64,000 bases of DNA from Thermoplasmatota archaeon (GTDB taxonomy: Archaea > Thermoplasmatota > Thermoplasmata > UBA10834), in the NCBI GenBank assembly GCA_963818745.1, contig CAWFTI010000001.1, positions 236,452-300,451 of the forward strand, read 5' to 3'. Below the pieces are notes generated by a model. It was not told the DNA's origin and did not search any database. It saw only the letters and a list, made by a program, of their open reading frames with translations. Below are positions 12,907-64,000 of this stretch, piece after piece. Both the position numbers and the translations under genes were made by a program. Every line of letters starts with the position of its first letter. The first letter of the stretch is position 1.

Positions 12907-15900
12907 ATGACAGATTCCAAGCCTGGAGTCTCCGCCATAAGGAGACTCATGGATTGTCCTATGGACCAGCTCTATTCGGAGCTAGGCTCAGGCCCGAGAG
13001 GACTCTCTGTCAATGAGGTCGAGGAAAGGCTAGTGGAGCACGGTCCGAACATACTCCCTGAAGCGAAGAAGACGCCTCTAGCACGCAAGGCAGTCGCACA
13101 GGTCAAGAACCTCTTCAATGTCCTTCTGATAGTAGCCGCTGGACTCTCGTTCATCACGGGCATCGGCTCGAACGACGCGAGCTCCATCCAGATGGGGTTC
13201 GCAATCCTTCTGGTCGTCGTGGTCAGCGCGGTCTTCAGCCTGTTCCAGGAATACAGGGCCGAGCAGGCAGTGGAAGTCCTGAGACAGCTCGTCCCAGTCA
13301 ATGTCAGGGCGGTCAGGGAGGGCAAGGTCGTCCAAACGCATGCGTTCGAAATCGTGCCTGGAGACGTCATATCCCTCGAGGAGGGGGACAAGGTACCTGC
13401 AGACGCGCGGTTGGTGTCAGCGTTCCAGTTCTCCGTGGACAACTCCATACTCACTGGCGAGGCAGAACCGCAAACCAGGTTCGTCGAGTGCAGATGTCCA
13501 GATGACACGCCGATCGAAGCCGCATCGAACTTGGTCTTCGCAGGGACAACCGTCGCCTCTGGATCGGGGACGGCCGTGGTGCTTGCGACAGGCAGCCAAA
13601 CGCGCTTCGGCCAGGTCGTCGGAATCGCCAGGAGCATCGAGGAACCGGAGAGTCCGCTTCAGAAGGAGATCAACCACACAGCGAGGCTGAACTTCATCCT
13701 GGCCATCGGCATCGGGATCCTGTTCCTATTCATCGCTCTCCAGTTCCTGCATCTCACCATGGCAGAGAGTCTGTTGTTCATGATCGGGGTGATGGTCTGC
13801 GTCGTCCCGGAAGGGCTCCAGATAACTCTCACCCTCTCGCTCGCGATCAGCAGTCTGGCCATGTCAAAACGCAATGTTGTCGTCAAGAGACTCTCATCGG
13901 TCGAGACCCTCGGTTCCACGACGGTCATCTGCACGGACAAGACCGGAACCATCACGGAAGGCCAGATGACGGTCCGCAAGGTGTGGGCCGGAGGGGTCGT
14001 CTACGACGTGTCAGGGGAAGGGTACGAGCCCGAGGGAGCCATACTCATCGGCGAGAAGGAGACCACGCCCTCCGGCAGGGACGACCTTCGCGCCCTTTGC
14101 GAGGTGGCCGCCCTCGACAACAAGGCCACCCTTGTGCCGCCGCTAGACAGCAGGAAGCAGAGATGGACTGCGGTAGGAGACTCCACCGACGCCGCCCTGC
14201 TCGTGCTGGCTGCCAAGGCCGGGATCGAGCCGAAGAAGGCGCTCGAGGAGATGCCCAGGGTCGGATTCATGCCGTTCGACTCGAACAGGAAGATGATGAC
14301 GAGCATACACAGAAAGGCGGACGGCACCGTCACAGCATACTCCAAGGGCGCTGGGGGGGCCATCATCCCACGCTGCATCTCCGCCATCTGGGGGAACCAG
14401 ATCGTCCCCATGACAGCCGAACTCGTGGCCAAGGTCCAAGCTGAGATGGACGCCATGGCGCGCGAAGCGTACCGGGTGATCGCTCTCGCAATCCGGCCGC
14501 TTCCAGGCGCAGAGATGAAGTACGATTCCGAATCGGTCGAGGCGAATCTCACCTTCGTCGGGTTGGTCGGCATCCTGGACCCTCCCCGGCGGGACGTTGC
14601 CCAGGCCGTCGCCAAGGCCAGGAACGCCGGCGTGAAGATCGTGATGATGACCGGCGACCACGAGCTGACGGCAAAGTCGATTGCCAGCAAGGTCGGAATC
14701 ATCACATCTGCGGACCACTTCGTGATGTCCTGCGAGAAGTTGGACGAGGTCTCTGACGAGGCACTGTCGGACATCCTCAACGCGCCTGAGCTAGTATTCG
14801 CTCGAGTGACTCCCGAGCAGAAGTTGAGGATAGTCCGCGCCCTTCAGAAGAAGGGGGAGGTCGTCGCCGTTACCGGAGACGGTGTCAACGACGCCCCGGC
14901 TCTGCTCGAGGCGGACATAGGCATCGCAATGGGCATTACGGGTACCGATGTGGCGCGCGAATCAGCTGACATGGTCCTGCTCGACGACAACTTCGCGTCC
15001 ATAGTCAACGGCGTCGAAGTCGGGCGTTCCGTCTTCGACAACCTAGGCAAGTTCATCGTGTATGTATTCAGCCACAACTGGGCCGAACTCATAACGTTCA
15101 TCGTGTTCGTCTTGTTGCAGACGCCTCTCCCGCTCGCTGTCGTCGGCGTCCTGACCATCGATCTCGTTCTGGAGATCCTCCCATCCATCGCCCTGACGAT
15201 GGAGCCACCTGAACCCGGAATCATGGACCGTCCACCCAGGACCAAGAAGACCCGCCTGTTCGGAGTGAAGACGCTCGCCCGGTCGTGCTACATCGGGTCC
15301 GTCACTGGCGTGGTGGCCGTCCTGTGGTGCTTCCAGGTGTGGAGTGATGCGGGTTGGGCCCTCGGGTCATCGACGGTCGAAGACACGGGCGCCTATCTCC
15401 GGGGGATGACCGTGGTGCTCGTCGGCATCATGGCAGGCCAGCTCGGCAACCTGTTTGCCACACGCACGAACGTCAGGTCCGCATTCTCCATGAGCCTCGC
15501 GCGCAACAAGTGGTTGCTCCCGAGCCTCGCGGCCGAGCTCGCGATCCTGCTGGCCATAGTCTACGTCCCATTCCTGCATCCAGTCTTCGGAACGAACGGG
15601 ATAGACCCCACCCTATGGGTCTACCTCTTCACTCTCGCGCCAGCGATACTGGTCATGGAGGAGGTCAGGAAGTACGTCGTGAGGACCGTGATTCTGCCCG
15701 CGCCGGCTGTCGCAGTCCATGCGCCGATCCCAGTCACCTTCTCGCGGGAGGTCAGACGTGCCCGTCAGAAGGAGGCCGTGAGGAAACCCTTCGTGGAGGT
15801 CGGCGCTCCCGTCGTGCTCCTCGGCCTTTCGGTGCAGGGCATCCGAGATGCGCTCCCCGTGGCGGTCGGCCTGGCCGAGCAATCGGGTTCGAGGATCGTT

Positions 15901-20081: not shown

Positions 20082-20176
20082 TAGCCCCGGGAGGATTCGA
20101 ACCTCCGTCGCAGGATCGCTCCTTGCGAGATACGCAATCCAGAGTCCCGCATGATTGACCACTACACTACGGGGCT
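20082..20176 (-). tRNA. tRNA-Gln (CUG) with 22-nt intron
   Basis: Cloverleaf folded by hand: acceptor AGCCCCG/CGGGGCT, T-arm GGAGG-TTCGAAT-CCTCC, anticodon stem CGGGA/TCCTG with loop CU-CUG-GA. The intron (about 20117..20138) sits at the canonical 37/38 position. No encoded CCA. Confidence 0.85.
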
Positions 20177-42311: not shown

Positions 42312-42419
42312 GTCGGGGTGGCTCAGACTGGTGGAGCGTCGGACTCATAGGGAGTTCTTCTGACCAGATGCTCCTCGGACATCCGGAGGTCGCGGGTTCA
42401 AATCCCGTCCCCGACACCA
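42312..42419 (+). tRNA. tRNA (anticodon CAU: elongator Met or Ile2) with 31-nt intron and encoded CCA
   Basis: Acceptor GTCGGGG/CCCCGAC, D-arm GCTC-AGACTGGTG-GAGC, anticodon CAT at 42346..42348, intron 42350..42380 at position 37/38, T-arm GCGGG-TTCAAAT-CCCGT, A73 then CCA (42417..42419). Confidence 0.85.
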
Positions 42420-58186: not shown

Positions 58187-59368
58187 ATGGTCGGCCTGTT
58201 CCGAAAGAAACCAACGAAAGATGGTTCCTCCGCTCGAAGGAAGCTGAAAGACTTCGAAGAAGAGGAGGAAGCTCTCGAGGCGGAAGAGGAGTCCGAAGAA
58301 GAGGTCTCGCCGCGCAAGGGCAAGGGAAAACCCGCCCGGGACGCGGACGAAGAGGTCGAAGACGAGGTTATCGGCGTAGACGAAGACAGCGCCGGACTGT
58401 CCAGCGTCAAGGAGATGAGCGAACTCCTTGGCCGTATGGATGAGGTCGCAGACAAGCTGGGAAGGCTCGATTCCGCGCTTACCATGGTGCGGAACGATAC
58501 AATCCAGGTCCGCGATCGCATGAACCAGACGGAGCAGGACGTCCGGAGGCTATTGTCCGTCTACGAGGTCGTCTCGGCGAAGTTCAACCCCTTCATCGAG
58601 ATCTCCGACAACGGCGCTTCCAAGCCCGGAGCGGCCGCCCCGGCCGCCCCTGGCAAGGGAGAGGAACTGAAGCTCCCCGAGATAGACCTCGGAGGAGACC
58701 TTCCAGAGTTCCGTCCGTTCCAGGATGGAGAGCCCGAGGAGCTGCCTTTCGTGCCAAGGAAACCCGCCGAACCTAAAGGAGGCGCCCCCCCGTGGGAGCC
58801 AGGGACGTCGACTGTGGTCATGGAAAGGGGACCAGCGGGGTCCTCGAGACAGAGAGCGCCACCAACGGACAAAGCATCCCAAGACGTGAACTACGAACGC
58901 GAGGTCCGGGCCGCGGCTAAGAGCAAGCACAACAAGAAGCCCTTGCTAGCCTACATCGCCCATGACTACCTCACGCTCGTGATGGTCATGCGCTGGATAG
59001 AGTTCCTGTTCGAGCGTGTAACGCGCGACAAGATCTCTCTAGTGCTTGACTACTACGTCGATGTCGGATGGATCAGCGAGGACGTGAAATCAGAGGTCAT
59101 GTCCTATGCCCGCGGCGAGATGCAGGACATCACGAAGTACATGGCGCCCGAGGAGACTCGGGAAGAGGTATTCCGCGATATGCCCGTACCAGCCGCCGCG
59201 CCCTACAAGAAGGTAGAGGACTGGCGTCTGTCCGCTGAAGACCACCTCAAGTCCTTGCTCTTCATACAGAAGATCGCAGGGCTTGAAGTCGACAAGGATC
59301 GACTGAACTCACTTGAACAGAACATATCGAAGTTCAAGGAGAGCCTGGAGGGCTTTCATGGGGTTTAG
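58187..59368 (+). CDS. arlCDE: ArlC/D/E (FlaC-FlaD/E) fusion protein with acidic N-terminal region
   Basis: Acidic low-complexity N-terminus, FlaC-like coiled coil (..LDSALTMVRNDTIQVRDRMNQTEQDVRRLLSVYEVVSAKFNPF) and a C-terminal FlaD/E domain. ATG 58187 (TTG 58175 possible). Confidence 0.75.
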   Translation: MVGLFRKKPTKDGSSARRKLKDFEEEEEALEAEEESEEEVSPRKGKGKPARDADEEVEDEVIGVDEDSAGLSSVKEMSELLGRMDEVADKLGRLDSALTMVRNDTIQVRDRMNQTEQDVRRLLSVYEVVSAKFNPFIEISDNGASKPGAAAPAAPGKGEELKLPEIDLGGDLPEFRPFQDGEPEELPFVPRKPAEPKGGAPPWEPGTSTVVMERGPAGSSRQRAPPTDKASQDVNYEREVRAAAKSKHNKKPLLAYIAHDYLTLVMVMRWIEFLFERVTRDKISLVLDYYVDVGWISEDVKSEVMSYARGEMQDITKYMAPEETREEVFRDMPVPAAAPYKKVEDWRLSAEDHLKSLLFIQKIAGLEVDKDRLNSLEQNISKFKESLEGFHGV

Positions 59369-60551
59369 TGTCTCGGCAACAATGGCGATATTCTTCGCCT
59401 CTTTTCTAATTCTTTTTTCTATTCTTTATTCTTCTGTAAACAGCGCTTTCGACGACATGCAGACTGCCTTCGACGAGAAATACGACGGTCTCCAGGCCAG
59501 GTCCGACACGAGTCTGAGTATCATCGACACGGCATACTACAGGGAGGACAACTCGCTCGTGATAGATGTCCTGAACACCGGAACGACTTCACTCGATGTG
59601 AACTGCACACAGCTTCTGGTGGATGGGGTCCTGACATCCTCAGCGACATTCCAGATACAAGGAGTGACGACCGAGATCTGGCAGCCGAACGAAGTGCTCA
59701 CCATCACTCTCACGAACCCAGACATAGGGTTCTCATCCGATGTGTACGTCCGGACGGACGGCTCCAACAACGCCCAGCTGACCTCTCCGACGAACATAAC
59801 CGCCGGCGAGAAGGTCTACATCGTGGACGGCACTGGCATCGATGTGTTCAGCCTCGACGGCACTTACGAATTCACGATCACAGACACTGTCAACACACCC
59901 ACCCCCGGGGACGTGAAGGTCTACGGGGACTACCTCTATGTGATGGACAACGCATCGCACGTGGACAGGTTCACGCTCGACGGAGTCTGGGTGGATAGTA
60001 TAGTATATGACGCGGTGAACACGCCGACGCCTAGATCCATCGCGGTCGACTCCAGCTACATCTACGTCGTGGACGACTACGACCACATAGACAGGTACAA
60101 CCGCGCTGCAGGCACGTTCGTGAACCAGTTGATACCCAACGGAGGCACGATGACCTCCCCGATGGACATGTCCGTTGGCGCGTACATATTCGTCATCGAC
60201 CGCGCGTCTGGCCTGTACCAAGTTGACCGGTACGCCCTCGACGGCACCGGCGGGACCATGATCGTGGGTTCTGCGAGGCTCGCGAATCCGACAGACATCT
60301 CCGCGAGCTCTGCAGGACTGCAGGACACCTACGTGTACATTGTCAACAACAGCCGCGAGATACTCGTGTTCGACGAGAGCGGCACATATCAGGGTTCAGT
60401 GGATGATGGATTGAGCAGCTCCGTCCGGGGCGTCGACGCCACCGGGAAGATATTCGTCCTGGACGGAGTGAACGGGCTCGTAACCGAGAACCTCGGCACG
60501 AGCATCAAGGTGGTGGCGGAGAACGGAGTCTCGAAGATAGACATGCTATAG
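59358..60551 (+). CDS. arlF: ArlF (FlaF)-like protein with inserted six-bladed NHL-like beta-propeller
   Basis: N-terminus MGFSVSATMAIFFASFLILF plus a FlaF-like beta domain, with the FlaF-like end IKVVAENGVSKIDML. Six repeats lie between them (KVYIVDGTGIDVFSLDG, YLYVMDNASHVDRFTLDG, YIYVVDDYDHIDRYN, YIFVIDRASGLYQVDRYALDG, YVYIVNNSREILVFDESG, KIFVLDGVNGLV). Confidence 0.7.
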   Translation: MGFSVSATMAIFFASFLILFSILYSSVNSAFDDMQTAFDEKYDGLQARSDTSLSIIDTAYYREDNSLVIDVLNTGTTSLDVNCTQLLVDGVLTSSATFQIQGVTTEIWQPNEVLTITLTNPDIGFSSDVYVRTDGSNNAQLTSPTNITAGEKVYIVDGTGIDVFSLDGTYEFTITDTVNTPTPGDVKVYGDYLYVMDNASHVDRFTLDGVWVDSIVYDAVNTPTPRSIAVDSSYIYVVDDYDHIDRYNRAAGTFVNQLIPNGGTMTSPMDMSVGAYIFVIDRASGLYQVDRYALDGTGGTMIVGSARLANPTDISASSAGLQDTYVYIVNNSREILVFDESGTYQGSVDDGLSSSVRGVDATGKIFVLDGVNGLVTENLGTSIKVVAENGVSKIDML

Positions 60552-60568: not shown

Positions 60569-61006
60569 ATGGGCGCAAGCGGAGCATCGACGCAGCTGAT
60601 CTTCTTCATCTCCGCGATCATCGTGTCGTCGGTAGTGGTCGCAACAGCTTCGAGGAGCGTGTTCGACCTATCGAACGGCATCGACGACCGTAGCGAGATA
60701 GTGAAGGACCAGCTGTCCACGGAGATAGAGATAATAAACGACCCGACGGCCGTCCCGAACGACCCCGTGCTTATCTACGTGAAGAACGTTGGAAGGAGCA
60801 GCCTGAACCAGAACCTGACGACGGTCATGCTGGATGGCGTGGCAGTCTCGGGCGCGACGATGACCCTGACGGGTAGCCAGACATCGTACTGGGAGCCGAC
60901 GAGCGTGCTCACGGTATCGATCAACCAGAATCTGGCTTCCGGAGACCACACGGTCACGGTCACGACCGAGAACGGCGCGTCAGACCAGTTCGACTTCCGC
61001 ATATGA
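60569..61006 (+). CDS. arlG: ArlG (FlaG)
   Basis: 145 aa with an N-terminal hydrophobic segment QLIFFISAIIVSSVVVATA and a FlaG-like beta domain (VLIYVKNVGRSSL.., VTVTTENGASD). Position between arlF and arlH. Confidence 0.75.
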   Translation: MGASGASTQLIFFISAIIVSSVVVATASRSVFDLSNGIDDRSEIVKDQLSTEIEIINDPTAVPNDPVLIYVKNVGRSSLNQNLTTVMLDGVAVSGATMTLTGSQTSYWEPTSVLTVSINQNLASGDHTVTVTTENGASDQFDFRI

Positions 61007-61022: not shown

Positions 61023-61721
61023 GTGGGCGACATATACAAGCTCCAGATCACAAGGGACGACCTGCACGACCAGCTGGGGCAGGGCATACCAGTGGGCACG
61101 ATCACGCTCATGGAGGGCGCGCAGGGCGCTGGGAAGAGCGCGGTCCTGCAGAGGATGGTCTTCGGGTTCCTCAACAACAAGCACAGCGTCACCTACATCT
61201 CCACCGAGCTCACCGTGAAGGACTTCGTCAGCCAGATGTATTCCCTCGACTATCCGATCGCGTCTCCGTTGCTCGAGGGGCGATTGCTGTTCATCCCGGT
61301 GTACCCCCTAGTTGGAAGGACGGCCGACAGGAAGGACTTCCTCGGGATGCTGATGAAGTCAAAGGAGCTGTACAGGAGCAATGTCATAATCATAGACACG
61401 TTTTCGAGCCTTGTCAGCAACAGCCTGGACAAGGATGAGAACAGCATCAGGATACTGACATTCTTCAAGAAGCTCGCGGGCATGGGCAAGAGCATCATCG
61501 TCTCCGTCGACACCGGGGAGATAAAGGGCGATGTGCTGATGCCGTTCCAGTCCGACAGCCACATATACCTGAGCCTGGTGGTCGCCCAGGTAGGCGGGGT
61601 CGTATCAAGGAGCATCATGGTGAAGAGATTCTCGAACACGAATTACAGGGTCGCCCCCATCATCGGATTCAGGATAGAACCGAACATAGGCATGGTGATT
61701 GAGATAACATCCGTCGTGTGA
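61023..61721 (+). CDS. arlH: ArlH (FlaH), KaiC/RecA-like ATP-binding protein
   Basis: GTG start. Walker A GAQGAGKS. RecA-like core ..VIIIDTFSSL... Position upstream of arlI. Confidence 0.85.
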   Translation: MGDIYKLQITRDDLHDQLGQGIPVGTITLMEGAQGAGKSAVLQRMVFGFLNNKHSVTYISTELTVKDFVSQMYSLDYPIASPLLEGRLLFIPVYPLVGRTADRKDFLGMLMKSKELYRSNVIIIDTFSSLVSNSLDKDENSIRILTFFKKLAGMGKSIIVSVDTGEIKGDVLMPFQSDSHIYLSLVVAQVGGVVSRSIMVKRFSNTNYRVAPIIGFRIEPNIGMVIEITSVV

Positions 61722-61730
61722 GGTGGATCG

Positions 61731-63366
61731 ATGCCTTTCAACATGGCCAAGGTCTTGCAGCGGAACCCGCACCTCAGCCTGTACCTTCAGGACTACGTCC
61801 AGAAGACGAAGCAGAACCCGAACTTCGTCGAGACGGTATCCAGGGACGCCGCGAAGGGTGGGGCCGCTGACATACTCTACCCTGTGGGCGACCCCATATT
61901 CATCCACCTGCACGGGTCGAAGGACAAGGGGTACAAGTACACCGTCGTGCAGCCGATACTGACCCCGGAGCTGGCGGAGAGCTACACGAAGGTCGTCAGC
62001 CGCATCTTCGTCAAAGCGGGGGGCGAGAAGATCCACACGAACGACAAGGAGTTCAACGATGTTCTCGACGCGCTCCTGGCGGACATAGTCAAGGTGACAG
62101 GCCGGGCGAGCCCTTCGAAGCTCGTCCAGATGTTCAAGCCAAGCCACAAGATCCACATCGCGGAGGACGACTACGGCATCGTCGAGTACTATGTCAAGAG
62201 GAACGTGCTGCAGAACGGGATCCTCGAGCCGGTCCTCAGAGACCCGTACATCGAGGACATCCACTGCGTCGGCCTCAGGGAGATCAACATCATCCACAAG
62301 GTCTTCGGGATGGTCGAGACGAACATCGTGTTCGACTCAGCGGCCGACCTCGACCGGTACGCCAAGGGCATGAGCGAGCGGATGGGCAGGCCCGCGTCCA
62401 TATCGAGACCGATCATCGACGGCGCGCTTCCCGGACGGCTCCCGTATCAACATCATCTACGCGGACGATGTGAGCGTCCAGGGACCGACATTCACCATCA
62501 GGAAGTTCGCGACCGAACCGATCTCGGCCCCGCAGCTGGCCAAGTGGAACACCTTCAGCGCCCAGGAGGCCGCATACCTGTGGCTGTGCCTCGAGAACGG
62601 CATGAGCGTGTTCGTCTGCGGCGAGACGGCGTCCGGCAAGACGACGACGCTGAACGCCATCTTCCCGTTCATAAGGTACGACCAGAAGATATTCTCCGCG
62701 GAGGACACCTTGGAGGTCCAGCCGCCCCAGGAGGTCTGGCAGCAGCTGTCCACCAGGGAGTTCGGCCCCGAGGAGAGCAGGGTCGACACATTCGCGCTGC
62801 TCAAAGCGGGCCTGAGGTCAAGGCCGAACTATGTGATCGTCGGTGAGATCAGAGGGAAGGAGGGGAACGTCGCCTTCCAGGCCATGCAGACTGGCATCCC
62901 TGTCATGGCGACCTTCCACGCCGCTTCCGTCAAGAGGATGATACAGAGGTTCACGGGCGACCCGATCAACGTGCCCATCACGAGCATGGACAACCTTAAC
63001 GTCGCGGTGTTCCAGGCAGGGGTCTACAGGGCCGGGAAGATGATCAGGCGCACCCTGTCCATCGAGGAGATCCTGGGATACAGCCATTCCATGGGAGGGG
63101 TGATGACCAGGGCGGTGTTCGTCTGGAACCCCGTCTCGGACGAACATCTGTTCAGGGGCATGAACAACTCCTTCATCCTCGAGGAGAAGATCGCGGTCAA
63201 GAGGGGGTACAAGGACAAGAGGGACATCTACAAGGAGCTGGCCGTGAGGACCAAGATCATCGAGAAGATGATGGAGACGAACCTCTTGGCATACAAGACC
63301 GCGAACGACGCCATCAAGGCGTTCCAGAAGGAGGGCGTGTCGGGACTGCCCTTCTCCGTGCAGTGA
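61731..63366 (+). CDS. arlI: ArlI (FlaI) archaellum assembly/motor ATPase (one +1 frame break near 62.43 kb)
   Basis: ATG lies behind GAGGTGG. N-domain ..YPVGDPIFIHL... After ..IIDGALP the +1 frame continues DGSRINIIYADDVSVQGPTFTIRKF.., Walker A GETASGKTTTLNA, GEIRGKE. Confidence 0.9.
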
Positions 63367-63579
63367 TTCTGACGACCTGCCGTTCCGACATCGCCGAGTG
63401 CATGCCAGTGATAGTCAGGCATGAGAATTGAGCGCCAACGCTTAATAGAGCAGCCCAGGGATGGCATACCGAGGCCACCGAGCATGCGCTCTGCCAGTAT
63501 GACCGCCCGACTGAGCGGCCTCACGAGAGTGTGAGAGCCTCACGCGATCCGCCCGACCGCGAGTGAAAGGGGTCTAGGG

Positions 63580-64000
63580 ATGCAGCAACCTGACGAAACG
63601 GGCCTGAAGAAGGCCATGCGGAAGAACCCGCACCTGATGACCTACGTCCAGGAGTTCGTCAGGTTGAACAAGTCCCCTCCCAAGTTCTACAAGGCCCTGA
63701 CCAGGGACATGGACACGCTCATAGAGATCAACATCGTCTACCCCATCGGCGACCCGCTGTTCGTCCACATATACTCCACCAAGAGCATCCCGATCAAGTA
63801 CACCTCGATCCAGCCTCCCCTGACCGAGGAACTCCTCCCGAGGTACAAGACCGTCATACAGCAGGTCTACAACAAGGCGGTCTACGAGAAGCCCCACGAG
63901 ACGGTCAAGCAGTTCGAGGAGAACCTGTTCAAGCTCATCGAAACCTCGACGACCATCGTCGCAGACGGGAAGTCGCCTAAGAAGAACCTGTTCGGGGACC
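63580..64000 (+). CDS. second ArlI/FlaI-like secretion ATPase paralogue, N-terminal part (runs off window; not in ORF track)
   Basis: Hand-translated from ATG 63580: MQQPDETGLKKAMRKNPHLMTYVQEFVRLNKSPPKFYKALTRD..IVYPIGDPLFVHIYSTKSIPIKYTSIQPPLTEELL... It is colinear with the ArlI N-terminus (..LQRNPHLSLYLQDYV..ILYPVGDPIFIHLHG..YKYTVVQPILTPELA). Confidence 0.75.
   Translation, partial: MQQPDETGLKKAMRKNPHLMTYVQEFVRLNKSPPKFYKALTRDMDTLIEINIVYPIGDPLFVHIYSTKSIPIKYTSIQPPLTEELLPRYKTVIQQVYNKAVYEKPHETVKQFEENLFKLIETSTTIVADGKSPKKNLFGD

What the first reader, a model, noticed from the sequence alone, without database searches (positions are those of the whole stretch)
59358..60551. ArlF (FlaF) homologue interrupted by a six-bladed NHL-like beta-propeller
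Typical ArlF proteins are small: an N-terminal membrane segment plus one beta-sandwich. Here the N-terminal FlaF-like part (to about aa 130) and the FlaF-like C-terminal strand (IKVVAENGVSKIDML) are separated by ~245 aa. That insert contains six ~40-aa repeats with a propeller signature (h-Y-h-V-D...h-D-R/V-F/Y..DG). In Sulfolobus acidocaldarius, ArlF contacts the S-layer as a stator element. A propeller grafted onto it suggests a different or additional envelope or glycan anchor for the archaellum in this lineage.
Basis: partly seen in the sequence, partly recalled or inferred. Interest (0 to 1): 0.65.

Follow-up and report, generated by a model that had tools for sequence, protein, structure and literature searches.

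The report
Archaellum stator ArlF carrying inserted β-propeller
The archaeal swimming-motor anchor protein ArlF here has a six-bladed propeller domain spliced into one loop, a design conserved across many uncultured Thermoplasmatota, which probably gives the motor a different grip on the cell envelope.

Summary
ORF 59358..60551 (+, 397 aa) sits between arlCDE and arlG in a complete archaellum operon.

- **ArlF parts:** residues 1-120 and 379-397 together make a complete ArlF. With residues 121-378 removed, the NCBIfam ArlF model matches end to end at 115 bits (cut-off 110).
- **Insert:** residues ~121-378 form a confidently predicted six-bladed NHL/YWTD-type β-propeller (pLDDT 91, pTM 0.84). 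The best Foldseek hits are the Brat and Mei-P26 NHL domains.
- **Not an artefact:** 60 close relatives, nearly all of 396-399 aa, have the same architecture. So do at least 21 further 50%-identity cluster representatives, down to ~21% identity. Every locus examined has the gene at the arlF position, including short-read assemblies. Named sources are almost all Thermoplasmatota MAGs, including order UBA10834 (Ca. Gimiplasmatales) and ex4484_6.
- **Function (inferred):** an enlarged envelope- or glycan-binding head on the ArlF/ArlG stator. Circumstantial support is listed in the full report.
- **Prior description:** none found in the searchable literature.

Verdict: a real, new variant of a known protein, of moderate to high interest.

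The parts
59358..60551 (+). arlF::propeller gene (397 aa plus stop)
   Evidence: GGAGG RBS upstream
59358..59507 (+). aa 1-50: N-terminal hydrophobic membrane helix continuing as a stalk helix (MGFSVSATMAIFF...)
   Evidence: AF2 helix 5-50; ArlF profile positions 1 onward; nearly invariant N-terminus
59508..59717 (+). aa 51-120: ArlF β-sandwich strands β1-β6
   Evidence: AF2 strands 53-61, 66-73, 85-88, 97-100, 107-108, 113-119; ArlF profile up to position 121; strand order matches S. acidocaldarius FlaF
59718..59777 (+). aa 121-140: entry linker with invariant R132 and strand 133-137, inferred to close blade 6 ('velcro')
   Evidence: inferred by counting strands, because blade 6 has only three contiguous strands
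59778..59894 (+). aa 141-179: propeller blade 1
59895..60020 (+). aa 180-221: propeller blade 2 (YLYVMD...HVDRF...DG)
60021..60149 (+). aa 222-264: propeller blade 3 (YIYVVD...HIDRY), ending in the conserved NGGTM loop
60150..60278 (+). aa 265-307: propeller blade 4
60279..60410 (+). aa 308-351: propeller blade 5
60411..60491 (+). aa 352-378: propeller blade 6 (three strands) and the exit linker NGLVxEN
60492..60548 (+). aa 379-397: ArlF strands β7-β8 (LGTSIKVVAENGVSKIDML), which complete the sandwich
   Evidence: The excision test restores ArlF profile positions 122-137 and lifts the score above cut-off; aligns with the ArlG C-terminus; K384, V386 and G390 are invariant
60569..61006 (+). arlG, canonical 145 aa, the presumed filament-forming partner of ArlF
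58175..59368 (+). arlC-arlD/E fusion gene immediately upstream
61023..61721 (+). arlH
61731..63366 (+). arlI, carrying a 1-nt frameshift near 62433 in this window
   Evidence: intact at 544 aa in close relatives

Best explanation
**Shown.** The gene encodes the only ArlF of this archaellum operon. A ~258-aa six-bladed NHL/YWTD-type β-propeller is inserted in the loop between β6 and β7 of the ArlF immunoglobulin-like sandwich. The membrane helix, β1-β6 and β7-β8 are all retained. The architecture is conserved at the arlF position in many Thermoplasmatota lineages.

**Inferred.**
- By homology with S. acidocaldarius ArlF, the N-terminal helix sits in the membrane and the rest lies outside the cell.
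- The retained β3/β4/β7/β8 sheet still mediates ArlF dimerisation and ArlG binding, so the protein still caps or joins the ArlG stator.
- The propeller's N- and C-termini meet in one blade. It projects from the end of the sandwich opposite the helix junction, which is most likely the membrane-distal end.
- There it serves as an enlarged binding head that fastens the stator to the outer envelope layer, either a glycoprotein coat or S-layer proteins or glycans. This would let the motor push against a fixed support.
- A candidate partner in the close clade is the sequon-rich ~1040-aa membrane-anchored surface protein encoded just after arlJ.
For: - **ArlF identity and true insertion:**
- **Operon position and sole arlF:**
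- **Propeller fold:**. Non-ArlF relatives of the insert are giant proteins carrying Pfam NHL or Ldl_recept_b repeats.
- **Conservation:** 60 proteins at 90% clustering. A further 21 or more 50%-cluster representatives of 377-420 aa, down to ~21% identity. 13 GTDB species representatives.
- **Insertion site:** the β6-β7 loop. β7 and β8 belong to the dimer-interface sheet in S. acidocaldarius FlaF, which binds S-layer protein (PMC4425475).
- **Surface-exposed binding role:** P0091 has a Laminin_G_3/ConA-like lectin domain nested in the propeller (E 4e-20). P0147 is an ArlF with fn3 and MAM-like additions. Sequons number 254 observed against 132 expected across 29 members.
- **Candidate partner:** a surface protein with BNR-like, CARDB and Ig-like parts and a C-terminal membrane anchor, carrying 24 sequons against 8 expected. 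It lies directly downstream of arlJ in the 13 of 15 close-clade loci that extend past arlJ.
Against: - There is no direct evidence for any binding partner.
- The envelope type of these uncultured lineages is unknown.
- The propeller surface is poorly conserved across the wide family; only fold-determining G and D positions persist. No common ligand site can therefore be named.
- The window protein itself shows no sequon enrichment (4 against 4.1 expected).
- The surface-protein neighbour is absent from the divergent loci L019 and L021.
The packing of β7-β8 into the sandwich and the membrane-distal orientation rest on sequence-profile and topology arguments.
- S-layer binding by ArlF has been shown experimentally only in S. 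acidocaldarius.
Confidence: 0.6

Rival explanations
1. The propeller is a structural spacer or oligomerisation module. It would build a collar or bushing around the filament base, or lengthen the stator to span a wider pseudoperiplasm, without binding the envelope specifically.
For: Length and fold are tightly conserved (377-420 aa) while the surface sequence is not, which fits a geometric role. Propellers often act as assembly platforms. The ArlF dimer-sheet strands are retained.
Against: Nested lectin-like and other adhesion-type domains in family members point to ligand binding rather than pure geometry. A stator must be fixed to something to resist torque (PMC8667602).
Confidence: 0.2
2. 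The propeller is an extracellular sensor domain, like the PknD β-propeller. It would bind a small ligand or environmental cue and modulate motor activity.
For: The family profile weakly matches the PknD sensor propeller and the Pizza proteins designed from it. Chemotaxis genes flank divergent operons.
Against: ArlF has one membrane helix and no cytoplasmic output domain. No conserved pocket residues persist across the family. Chemotactic input to archaella is known to go through the cytoplasmic ArlCDE (PMC8978795).
Confidence: 0.07
3. The propeller is an enzyme of the six-bladed SGL, lactonase or lyase type. It would remodel envelope glycans or proteins locally so that the filament can pass.
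For: Some non-ArlF relatives of the insert also match the SGL, arylesterase and Vgb_lyase families. The close clade has many conserved D, H and N residues.
Against: The conserved H-x-D-R and Y-x-x-D residues recur once per blade, like NHL fold determinants, and are lost in divergent members. The ArlF insert itself hits no enzyme family.
Confidence: 0.04
4. The architecture is an artefact: two genes fused by a frameshift or misassembly in an error-prone assembly.
For: Three other genes of the same operon are frameshifted in this window.
Against: The identical 397-aa ORF occurs in 13 members of its 90% cluster from JGI, ENA, NCBI and Logan, including short-read contigs. Relatives from 80% down to ~21% identity all have ArlF strands on both sides of the propeller. 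A simple fusion cannot produce a split ArlF domain.
Confidence: 0.01

Closest known systems
Canonical euryarchaeal ArlF (FlaF), NCBIfam NF052590, ~137-160 aa
   Same: It has the same N-terminal helix, the same β-sandwich (end-to-end profile match once the insert is removed), and the same gene position between arlCDE and arlG.
   Different: It carries a ~258-aa propeller in the β6-β7 loop. The full-length protein scores just under the curated cut-off (103.3 against 110). NCBI names it 'hypothetical protein'.
Sulfolobus acidocaldarius FlaF/ArlF (crystal structures, PMC4425475) and the ArlF-ArlG stator model (PMC8667602)
   Same: It is a monotopic membrane protein with an eight-strand Ig-like sandwich. 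β7-β8 belong to the sheet used for dimerisation. The proposed role is the same: anchoring the stator to the envelope.
   Different: The Sulfolobus protein binds the S-layer with the sandwich itself and has no extra domain. No sequence-level PDB hit was obtained. Binding and dimerisation are untested here.
NHL-repeat six-bladed β-propellers (Brat 1q7f/4zlr, Mei-P26 7nyq, Thin 6d69; PknD sensor 1rwi and the designed Pizza6)
   Same: It has six four-stranded blades of ~42 aa. These are the best Foldseek matches. The profile matches over all six blades, and the per-blade motif resembles the NHL consensus.
   Different: No Pfam PF01436 hit reaches threshold. The domain is inserted inside another domain rather than sitting at a terminus. 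Those proteins bind RNA or protein, or are sensors in unrelated contexts.
YWTD / LDL-receptor class B propellers (LRP2, LRP4, LRP6, LDLR)
   Same: These are the best sequence-profile hits (E 2e-10 to 3e-9 summed over repeated propellers). They share the six-bladed fold and are extracellular ligand-binding platforms.
   Different: Individual-domain E-values are weak (0.02-0.2). There is no EGF module, and the proteins are eukaryotic receptors.
Accessory periplasmic scaffolds added to bacterial flagellar stators (for example the Vibrio T- and H-rings) – a functional analogy from my own knowledge
   Same: Both show lineage-specific addition of extracytoplasmic domains that fix the stators of a rotary motility motor to the cell envelope.
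   Different: The proteins and the motor are unrelated. In bacteria these are separate proteins, not a domain inserted into the stator subunit. The analogy was not tested here.

Membership tests
ArlF (FlaF) archaellum stator protein | Match to the curated ArlF equivalog model (NF052590) above its cut-off of 110 bits | tested here: met
   The full length scores 103.3 bits over profile positions 1-121 only. With aa 121-378 excised it scores 115 bits over 1-137/137. ArlG scores only 35-39 bits.
ArlF (FlaF) archaellum stator protein | Gene located in an arl operon next to arlG, in the euryarchaeal order arlCDE-arlF-arlG-arlH-arlI-arlJ | tested here: met
   for the window; for relatives.
ArlF (FlaF) archaellum stator protein | N-terminal hydrophobic helix followed by an eight-strand Ig-like β-sandwich | tested here: inconclusive
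   AF2 gives helix 5-50, six strands before the insert and two after it, in the same order as S. acidocaldarius FlaF.
ArlF (FlaF) archaellum stator protein | Dimerisation, ArlG binding and envelope (S-layer) binding; required for rotation | not testable with these tools
   These are biochemical and genetic properties shown only for S. acidocaldarius (PMC4425475).
NHL-repeat β-propeller (Pfam PF01436; six-bladed propeller clan) | Six four-stranded blades of ~40 aa forming a closed propeller | tested here: met
   AF2 pLDDT 91.4 and pTM 0.84, with 24 strands. Foldseek top hits are NHL domains with TM 0.69-0.72 normalised to the target.
NHL-repeat β-propeller (Pfam PF01436; six-bladed propeller clan) | Significant match to the Pfam NHL repeat HMM | tested here: not met
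   No NHL hit even at E<=10; only LVIVD at E 0.07. The family profile does hit NHL-domain PDB chains (Thin 3e-5, Mei-P26 1e-3, Pizza6 2e-6).
YWTD / LDL-receptor class B propeller (PF00058) | Significant match to YWTD repeats or propellers | tested here: inconclusive
   LRP2, LRP4 and LRP6 are hit at 2e-10 to 5e-4, but single-domain E-values are 0.02-0.2. There is no Pfam Ldl_recept_b hit on the insert.

The most novel reading that the evidence does not exclude
The inserted propeller is a lineage-specific envelope anchor. It lets Thermoplasmatota that lack a conventional paracrystalline S-layer fix their archaellar stators, possibly by docking onto the sequon-rich ~1040-aa surface glycoprotein co-encoded after arlJ. 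This would parallel the accessory scaffolds that bacteria added to flagellar stators. It would answer the question left open for S-layer-less Thermoplasmatales, where canonical ArlFs showed no special motif (PMC12448462).
Probability: 0.35. Interest if true: 0.78.

Novelty: new variant of a known kind. Interest (0 to 1): 0.62.

Why it matters
How the archaellum stator (ArlF/ArlG) is fixed to the cell envelope is unresolved. This is especially so in archaea without an S-layer. A 2025 study looked for special ArlF features in S-layer-less Thermoplasmatales and found none (PMC12448462).

This finding shows that a broad set of other Thermoplasmatota solved something differently. Their only ArlF carries a whole ligand-binding-type propeller, sometimes with a nested lectin domain. 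That gives a concrete, expressible domain with which to look for the envelope partner.

It is also a clear case of a motility stator gaining modules during evolution. Finally, it explains why this protein is mis-annotated: it is named 'hypothetical protein' in NCBI records and falls below the ArlF cut-off.

Tried and rejected
- **Pfam on the insert alone:** no NHL or YWTD hit. The fold assignment therefore rests on the PDB profile search and the structure prediction.
- **Self-BLAST of the protein:** found no internal repeats. The blades are too divergent for pairwise detection.
- **Profile of the excised ArlF against PDB sequences:** no FlaF, FlaG or archaellin hit.
- **Structure prediction of the excised ArlF alignment:** No Foldseek test of the ArlF sandwich alone was possible.
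- **Tsai et al. 2019/2020 (PMC6952060):** not held.
- **Literature searches:** 'ArlF + beta-propeller', 'FlaF + archaea + NHL' and 'archaell + NHL repeat' each returned zero papers. 'FlaF + FlaG + archaellum + domain insertion' returned one unrelated paper.
- **Rfam on the window:** only two tRNAs, so there is no rRNA for taxonomy.
- **S-layer candidate within the window:** the ten largest upstream ORFs are mostly housekeeping or transport proteins, plus an HTH_20 regulator and one ORF with no family match.
- **Assembly-error explanation:** considered because three neighbouring genes are frameshifted, then rejected.
Full report
**1. What is at the coordinates**

ORF 59358..60551 (+) encodes 397 aa. 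The ATG at 59358 has a GGAGG about 8 nt upstream and overlaps the upstream gene's stop by 11 nt. All homologues start MGFSVSA, so the upstream TTG at 59313 is not the start.

The gene lies in a complete archaellum operon:

| Gene | Coordinates |
|---|---|
| arlB | 53596-54312 |
| arlD/E-like | 54343-54813 |
| long arlB | 55190-56909 |
| third arlB | 57417 to ~58050 |
| arlC-arlD/E fusion | 58175-59368 |
| this gene | 59358-60551 |
| arlG | 60569-61006 |
| arlH | 61023-61721 |
| arlI | 61731-63366 |
| second arlI paralogue | from 63571, runs off the window |

**2. It is ArlF, and the propeller is a true insertion**

- The full-length protein matches the NCBIfam ArlF equivalog only over residues 1-120, which are profile positions 1-121 of 137. 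The score is 103.3 bits against a cut-off of 110.
- I deleted residues 121-378 (or 126-378) in silico. The match then runs end to end (1-137/137) at 115 bits, above the cut-off. The N-terminal part alone gives 107.5 bits.
- The excised protein aligns 1-139 with the neighbouring canonical ArlG at 30% identity (E 3e-21) with one gap. The junction falls on ArlG's 'NLASGDH' loop, and 'IKVVAENGVS' aligns with 'VTVTTENGAS'.

**3. The insert is a six-bladed NHL/YWTD-type propeller**

- AlphaFold2 was run with a 29-sequence family alignment. It gave mean pLDDT 91.4 and pTM 0.84.
- The predicted elements are a helix at 5-50, sandwich strands at 53-119, 24 strands between 133 and 377, and two final strands at 382-386 and 392-396.
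- The 24 strands group as five blades of four contiguous strands plus a sixth blade of three. The isolated first strand, 133-137, preceded by invariant R132, is most simply the closing strand of blade 6. This is an inference from strand counting. It would bring the two ends of the insert together, as a loop insertion requires.
- Foldseek against the PDB ranks the NHL domains of Brat and Mei-P26 first (E about 1e-9, TM 0.69-0.72 normalised to the target). YWTD propellers of LDLR and LRP6 follow.
- The family profile hits LRP2 and LRP4 (2e-10 to 3e-9), Pizza6 over all six blades (query 140-376, 1.7e-6), and the Thin and Mei-P26 NHL domains.
- Each blade repeats x-[ST]-P-x-x-[IV]-x-V, Y-[IL]-Y-V-x-D, H-[IV]-D-R-[FY] and D-G. 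This is close to the NHL consensus seen in a typical NHL protein, P0178.
- Pfam's short NHL model does not reach threshold. A self-BLAST sees no repeats.
- Non-ArlF relatives of the insert are giant multi-propeller proteins carrying Pfam NHL or Ldl_recept_b repeats.

**4. It is not an artefact, and it is widespread**

- A first search found 60 proteins. Nearly all are 396-399 aa and full length, from 100% down to 35% identity.
- The window protein's own 90% cluster has 13 members from NCBI, ENA, JGI and Logan.
- Contigs carrying a member of that 90% cluster (P0065), including a MEGAHIT-style contig name (k141), hold the same 397-aa gene in the same operon.
- An exhaustive profile search of 1.84 billion cluster representatives found at least 21 further representatives of 377-420 aa aligned over the whole profile. 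They fall to about 21% identity to the window protein.
- Two of the divergent ones were located on contigs. Both sit between arlCDE and arlG in full operons flanked by chemotaxis genes.
- Thirteen GTDB species-representative genomes carry it, all uncultured Thermoplasmata or 'Methanobacteriota' MAGs. They include UBA10834 and UBA9653.
- Those two belong to order UBA10834 (bioRxiv 10.1101/2020.03.09.984617), which is Ca. Gimiplasmatales (PMC11264602).
- Divergent members come from Guaymas Basin Thermoplasmata MAGs and from 'Thermoplasmatales archaeon ex4484_6'. By its name, that MAG is the eponym of class EX4484-6, Ca. Penumbrarchaeia (PMC12220078). This link is an inference.
- One 2.5-kb contig is labelled Korarchaeota, which I would not trust.
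- The window organism is probably also a Gimiplasmatales-like Thermoplasmata. This is inferred from identical synteny, 54-59% identity and ~60% GC.

**5. Where the insert sits in the ArlF fold**

In S. acidocaldarius FlaF the strands are β1 to β8. One sheet is β1-β2-β6-β5. The other is β4-β3-β7-β8, which forms the functionally required dimer interface. The soluble domain binds S-layer protein (PMC4425475).

Mapping by strand order puts the insertion in the β6-β7 loop. β6 runs parallel to β1, so this loop lies at the end of the sandwich opposite the helix-β1 junction. That is most likely the membrane-distal end, but this is an inference because I could not access the model coordinates.

β7-β8 are retained, with invariant K384, V386 and G390. 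This suggests that the ArlF-ArlF and ArlF-ArlG contacts are kept.

**6. Function**

The current model has an ArlG filament spanning the pseudoperiplasm, capped by ArlF, which binds the S-layer (PMC8667602; PMC8978795). The simplest reading here is that the propeller is an enlarged envelope-binding head.

Circumstantial support:
- P0091 has a ConA-like lectin (Laminin_G_3) domain nested inside the propeller (E 4e-20). P0077 has another nested insert that matches no Pfam family. P0147 is a canonical ArlF extended by fn3 and MAM-like domains. ArlF therefore collects extracellular binding modules.
- N-glycosylation sequons are enriched about 1.9-fold over shuffles across 29 members, though not in the window protein itself.
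- In the 13 of 15 close-clade loci that extend past arlJ, the next gene encodes a ~1040-aa protein. It has an N-terminal BNR-like repeat region, CARDB, NPCBM_assoc and Ig-like domains, a C-terminal membrane anchor, and 24 sequons against 8 expected. This is a plausible envelope glycoprotein and a candidate partner. It lies outside the window and is absent from the divergent loci.

Against a shared ligand site, only fold-determining residues are conserved across the wide family. Rival roles (a collar or spacer, a sensor, an enzyme) cannot be excluded but have less support.

**7. Comparison with the literature**

No paper in the searchable library links ArlF or FlaF with a propeller or NHL domain. 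A 2025 study compared AlphaFold models of ArlF from S-layer-less Thermoplasmatales with those from S-layer-bearing archaea. It found only minor differences and left the anchoring question open (PMC12448462).

JGI annotates members as 'archaellum component FlaF'. NCBI annotates them as 'hypothetical protein'.

I therefore class this as a new variant of a known kind. Its membership in ArlF is established. The propeller is NHL/YWTD-like at fold level, but it is not a demonstrated member of Pfam NHL.

**8. Verdict**

The structural interpretation is supported. The functional interpretation is plausible but untested. Interest is 0.62.

Noticed in passing
window 55190-56909; 57417 to ~58050; 61731-63366: Three archaellum genes are frameshifted in this window. 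They are the long arlB (near the CCCCCGGG run at ~56020-56040), the third arlB (stop at ~57660) and arlI (an extra G at ~62433). All three are intact in contigs carrying a member of the same 90% ArlF cluster (572, 210 and 544 aa). Sequencing or assembly indel errors are therefore more likely than pseudogenes.
   Followed up: partly
window 55190-56909 (L006:5873-7591, L014:3988-5709): An unusually long archaellin of ~572 aa. The Pfam archaellin match covers only the N-terminal part, and a weak match covers the C-terminal part. An insert of about 350-400 aa between them contains three repeats of the type Y-x-Y-x-V-V-x-x-D-x-x-G-N. It is conserved in all close-clade loci (49-79% identity).
   Followed up: partly
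window 61731-63366 and 63571-64000 (runs off the end); L006:12376-14007 and 14211-15869: There are two tandem arlI (FlaI) paralogues between arlH and arlJ in the close clade. The second scores 712 bits on the NCBIfam FlaI equivalog (cut-off 550). Archaella are usually described as using a single ATPase.
   Followed up: partly
L006:17877-21005 and the equivalent position in L002-L005, L008-L011, L013, L016-L018 (outside the window): A ~1040-aa surface protein sits directly downstream of arlJ. It has an N-terminal hydrophobic segment, a BNR-like repeat region, CARDB, NPCBM_assoc and Ig-like domains, and a C-terminal TM segment with a basic tail. It carries 24 N-x-S/T sequons against 8 expected. 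It is a possible envelope or S-layer-like glycoprotein and a candidate partner of the ArlF propeller.
   Followed up: partly
P0091, P0077, P0147, P0105 (metagenomic proteins): Further ArlF/ArlG architectures exist. One has a propeller with a nested ConA-like lectin domain (627 aa), and one has another nested insert with no Pfam match (565 aa). One is a canonical ArlF with C-terminal fn3 and MAM-like domains (593 aa). One protein has four matches to the Pfam archaeal-flagellin domain in tandem (468 aa).
   Followed up: partly
window 58175-59368 and 54343-54813: An ArlC-ArlD/E fusion protein (397 aa, with an acidic low-complexity N-terminus) occurs together with a separate 156-aa ArlD/E-like gene placed among the archaellin genes.
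   Followed up: no
window 52903-53244: A small HTH_20 (ArsR-like) regulator gene lies just upstream of the first arlB. It is conserved at the same position in relatives (L002, L016, L017) and may be an archaellum operon regulator.
   Followed up: no
window 42312-42416 (+) and 20082-20176 (-): Two tRNA matches span 105 and 95 nt, longer than a standard tRNA. This suggests intron-containing archaeal tRNA genes.
   Followed up: no
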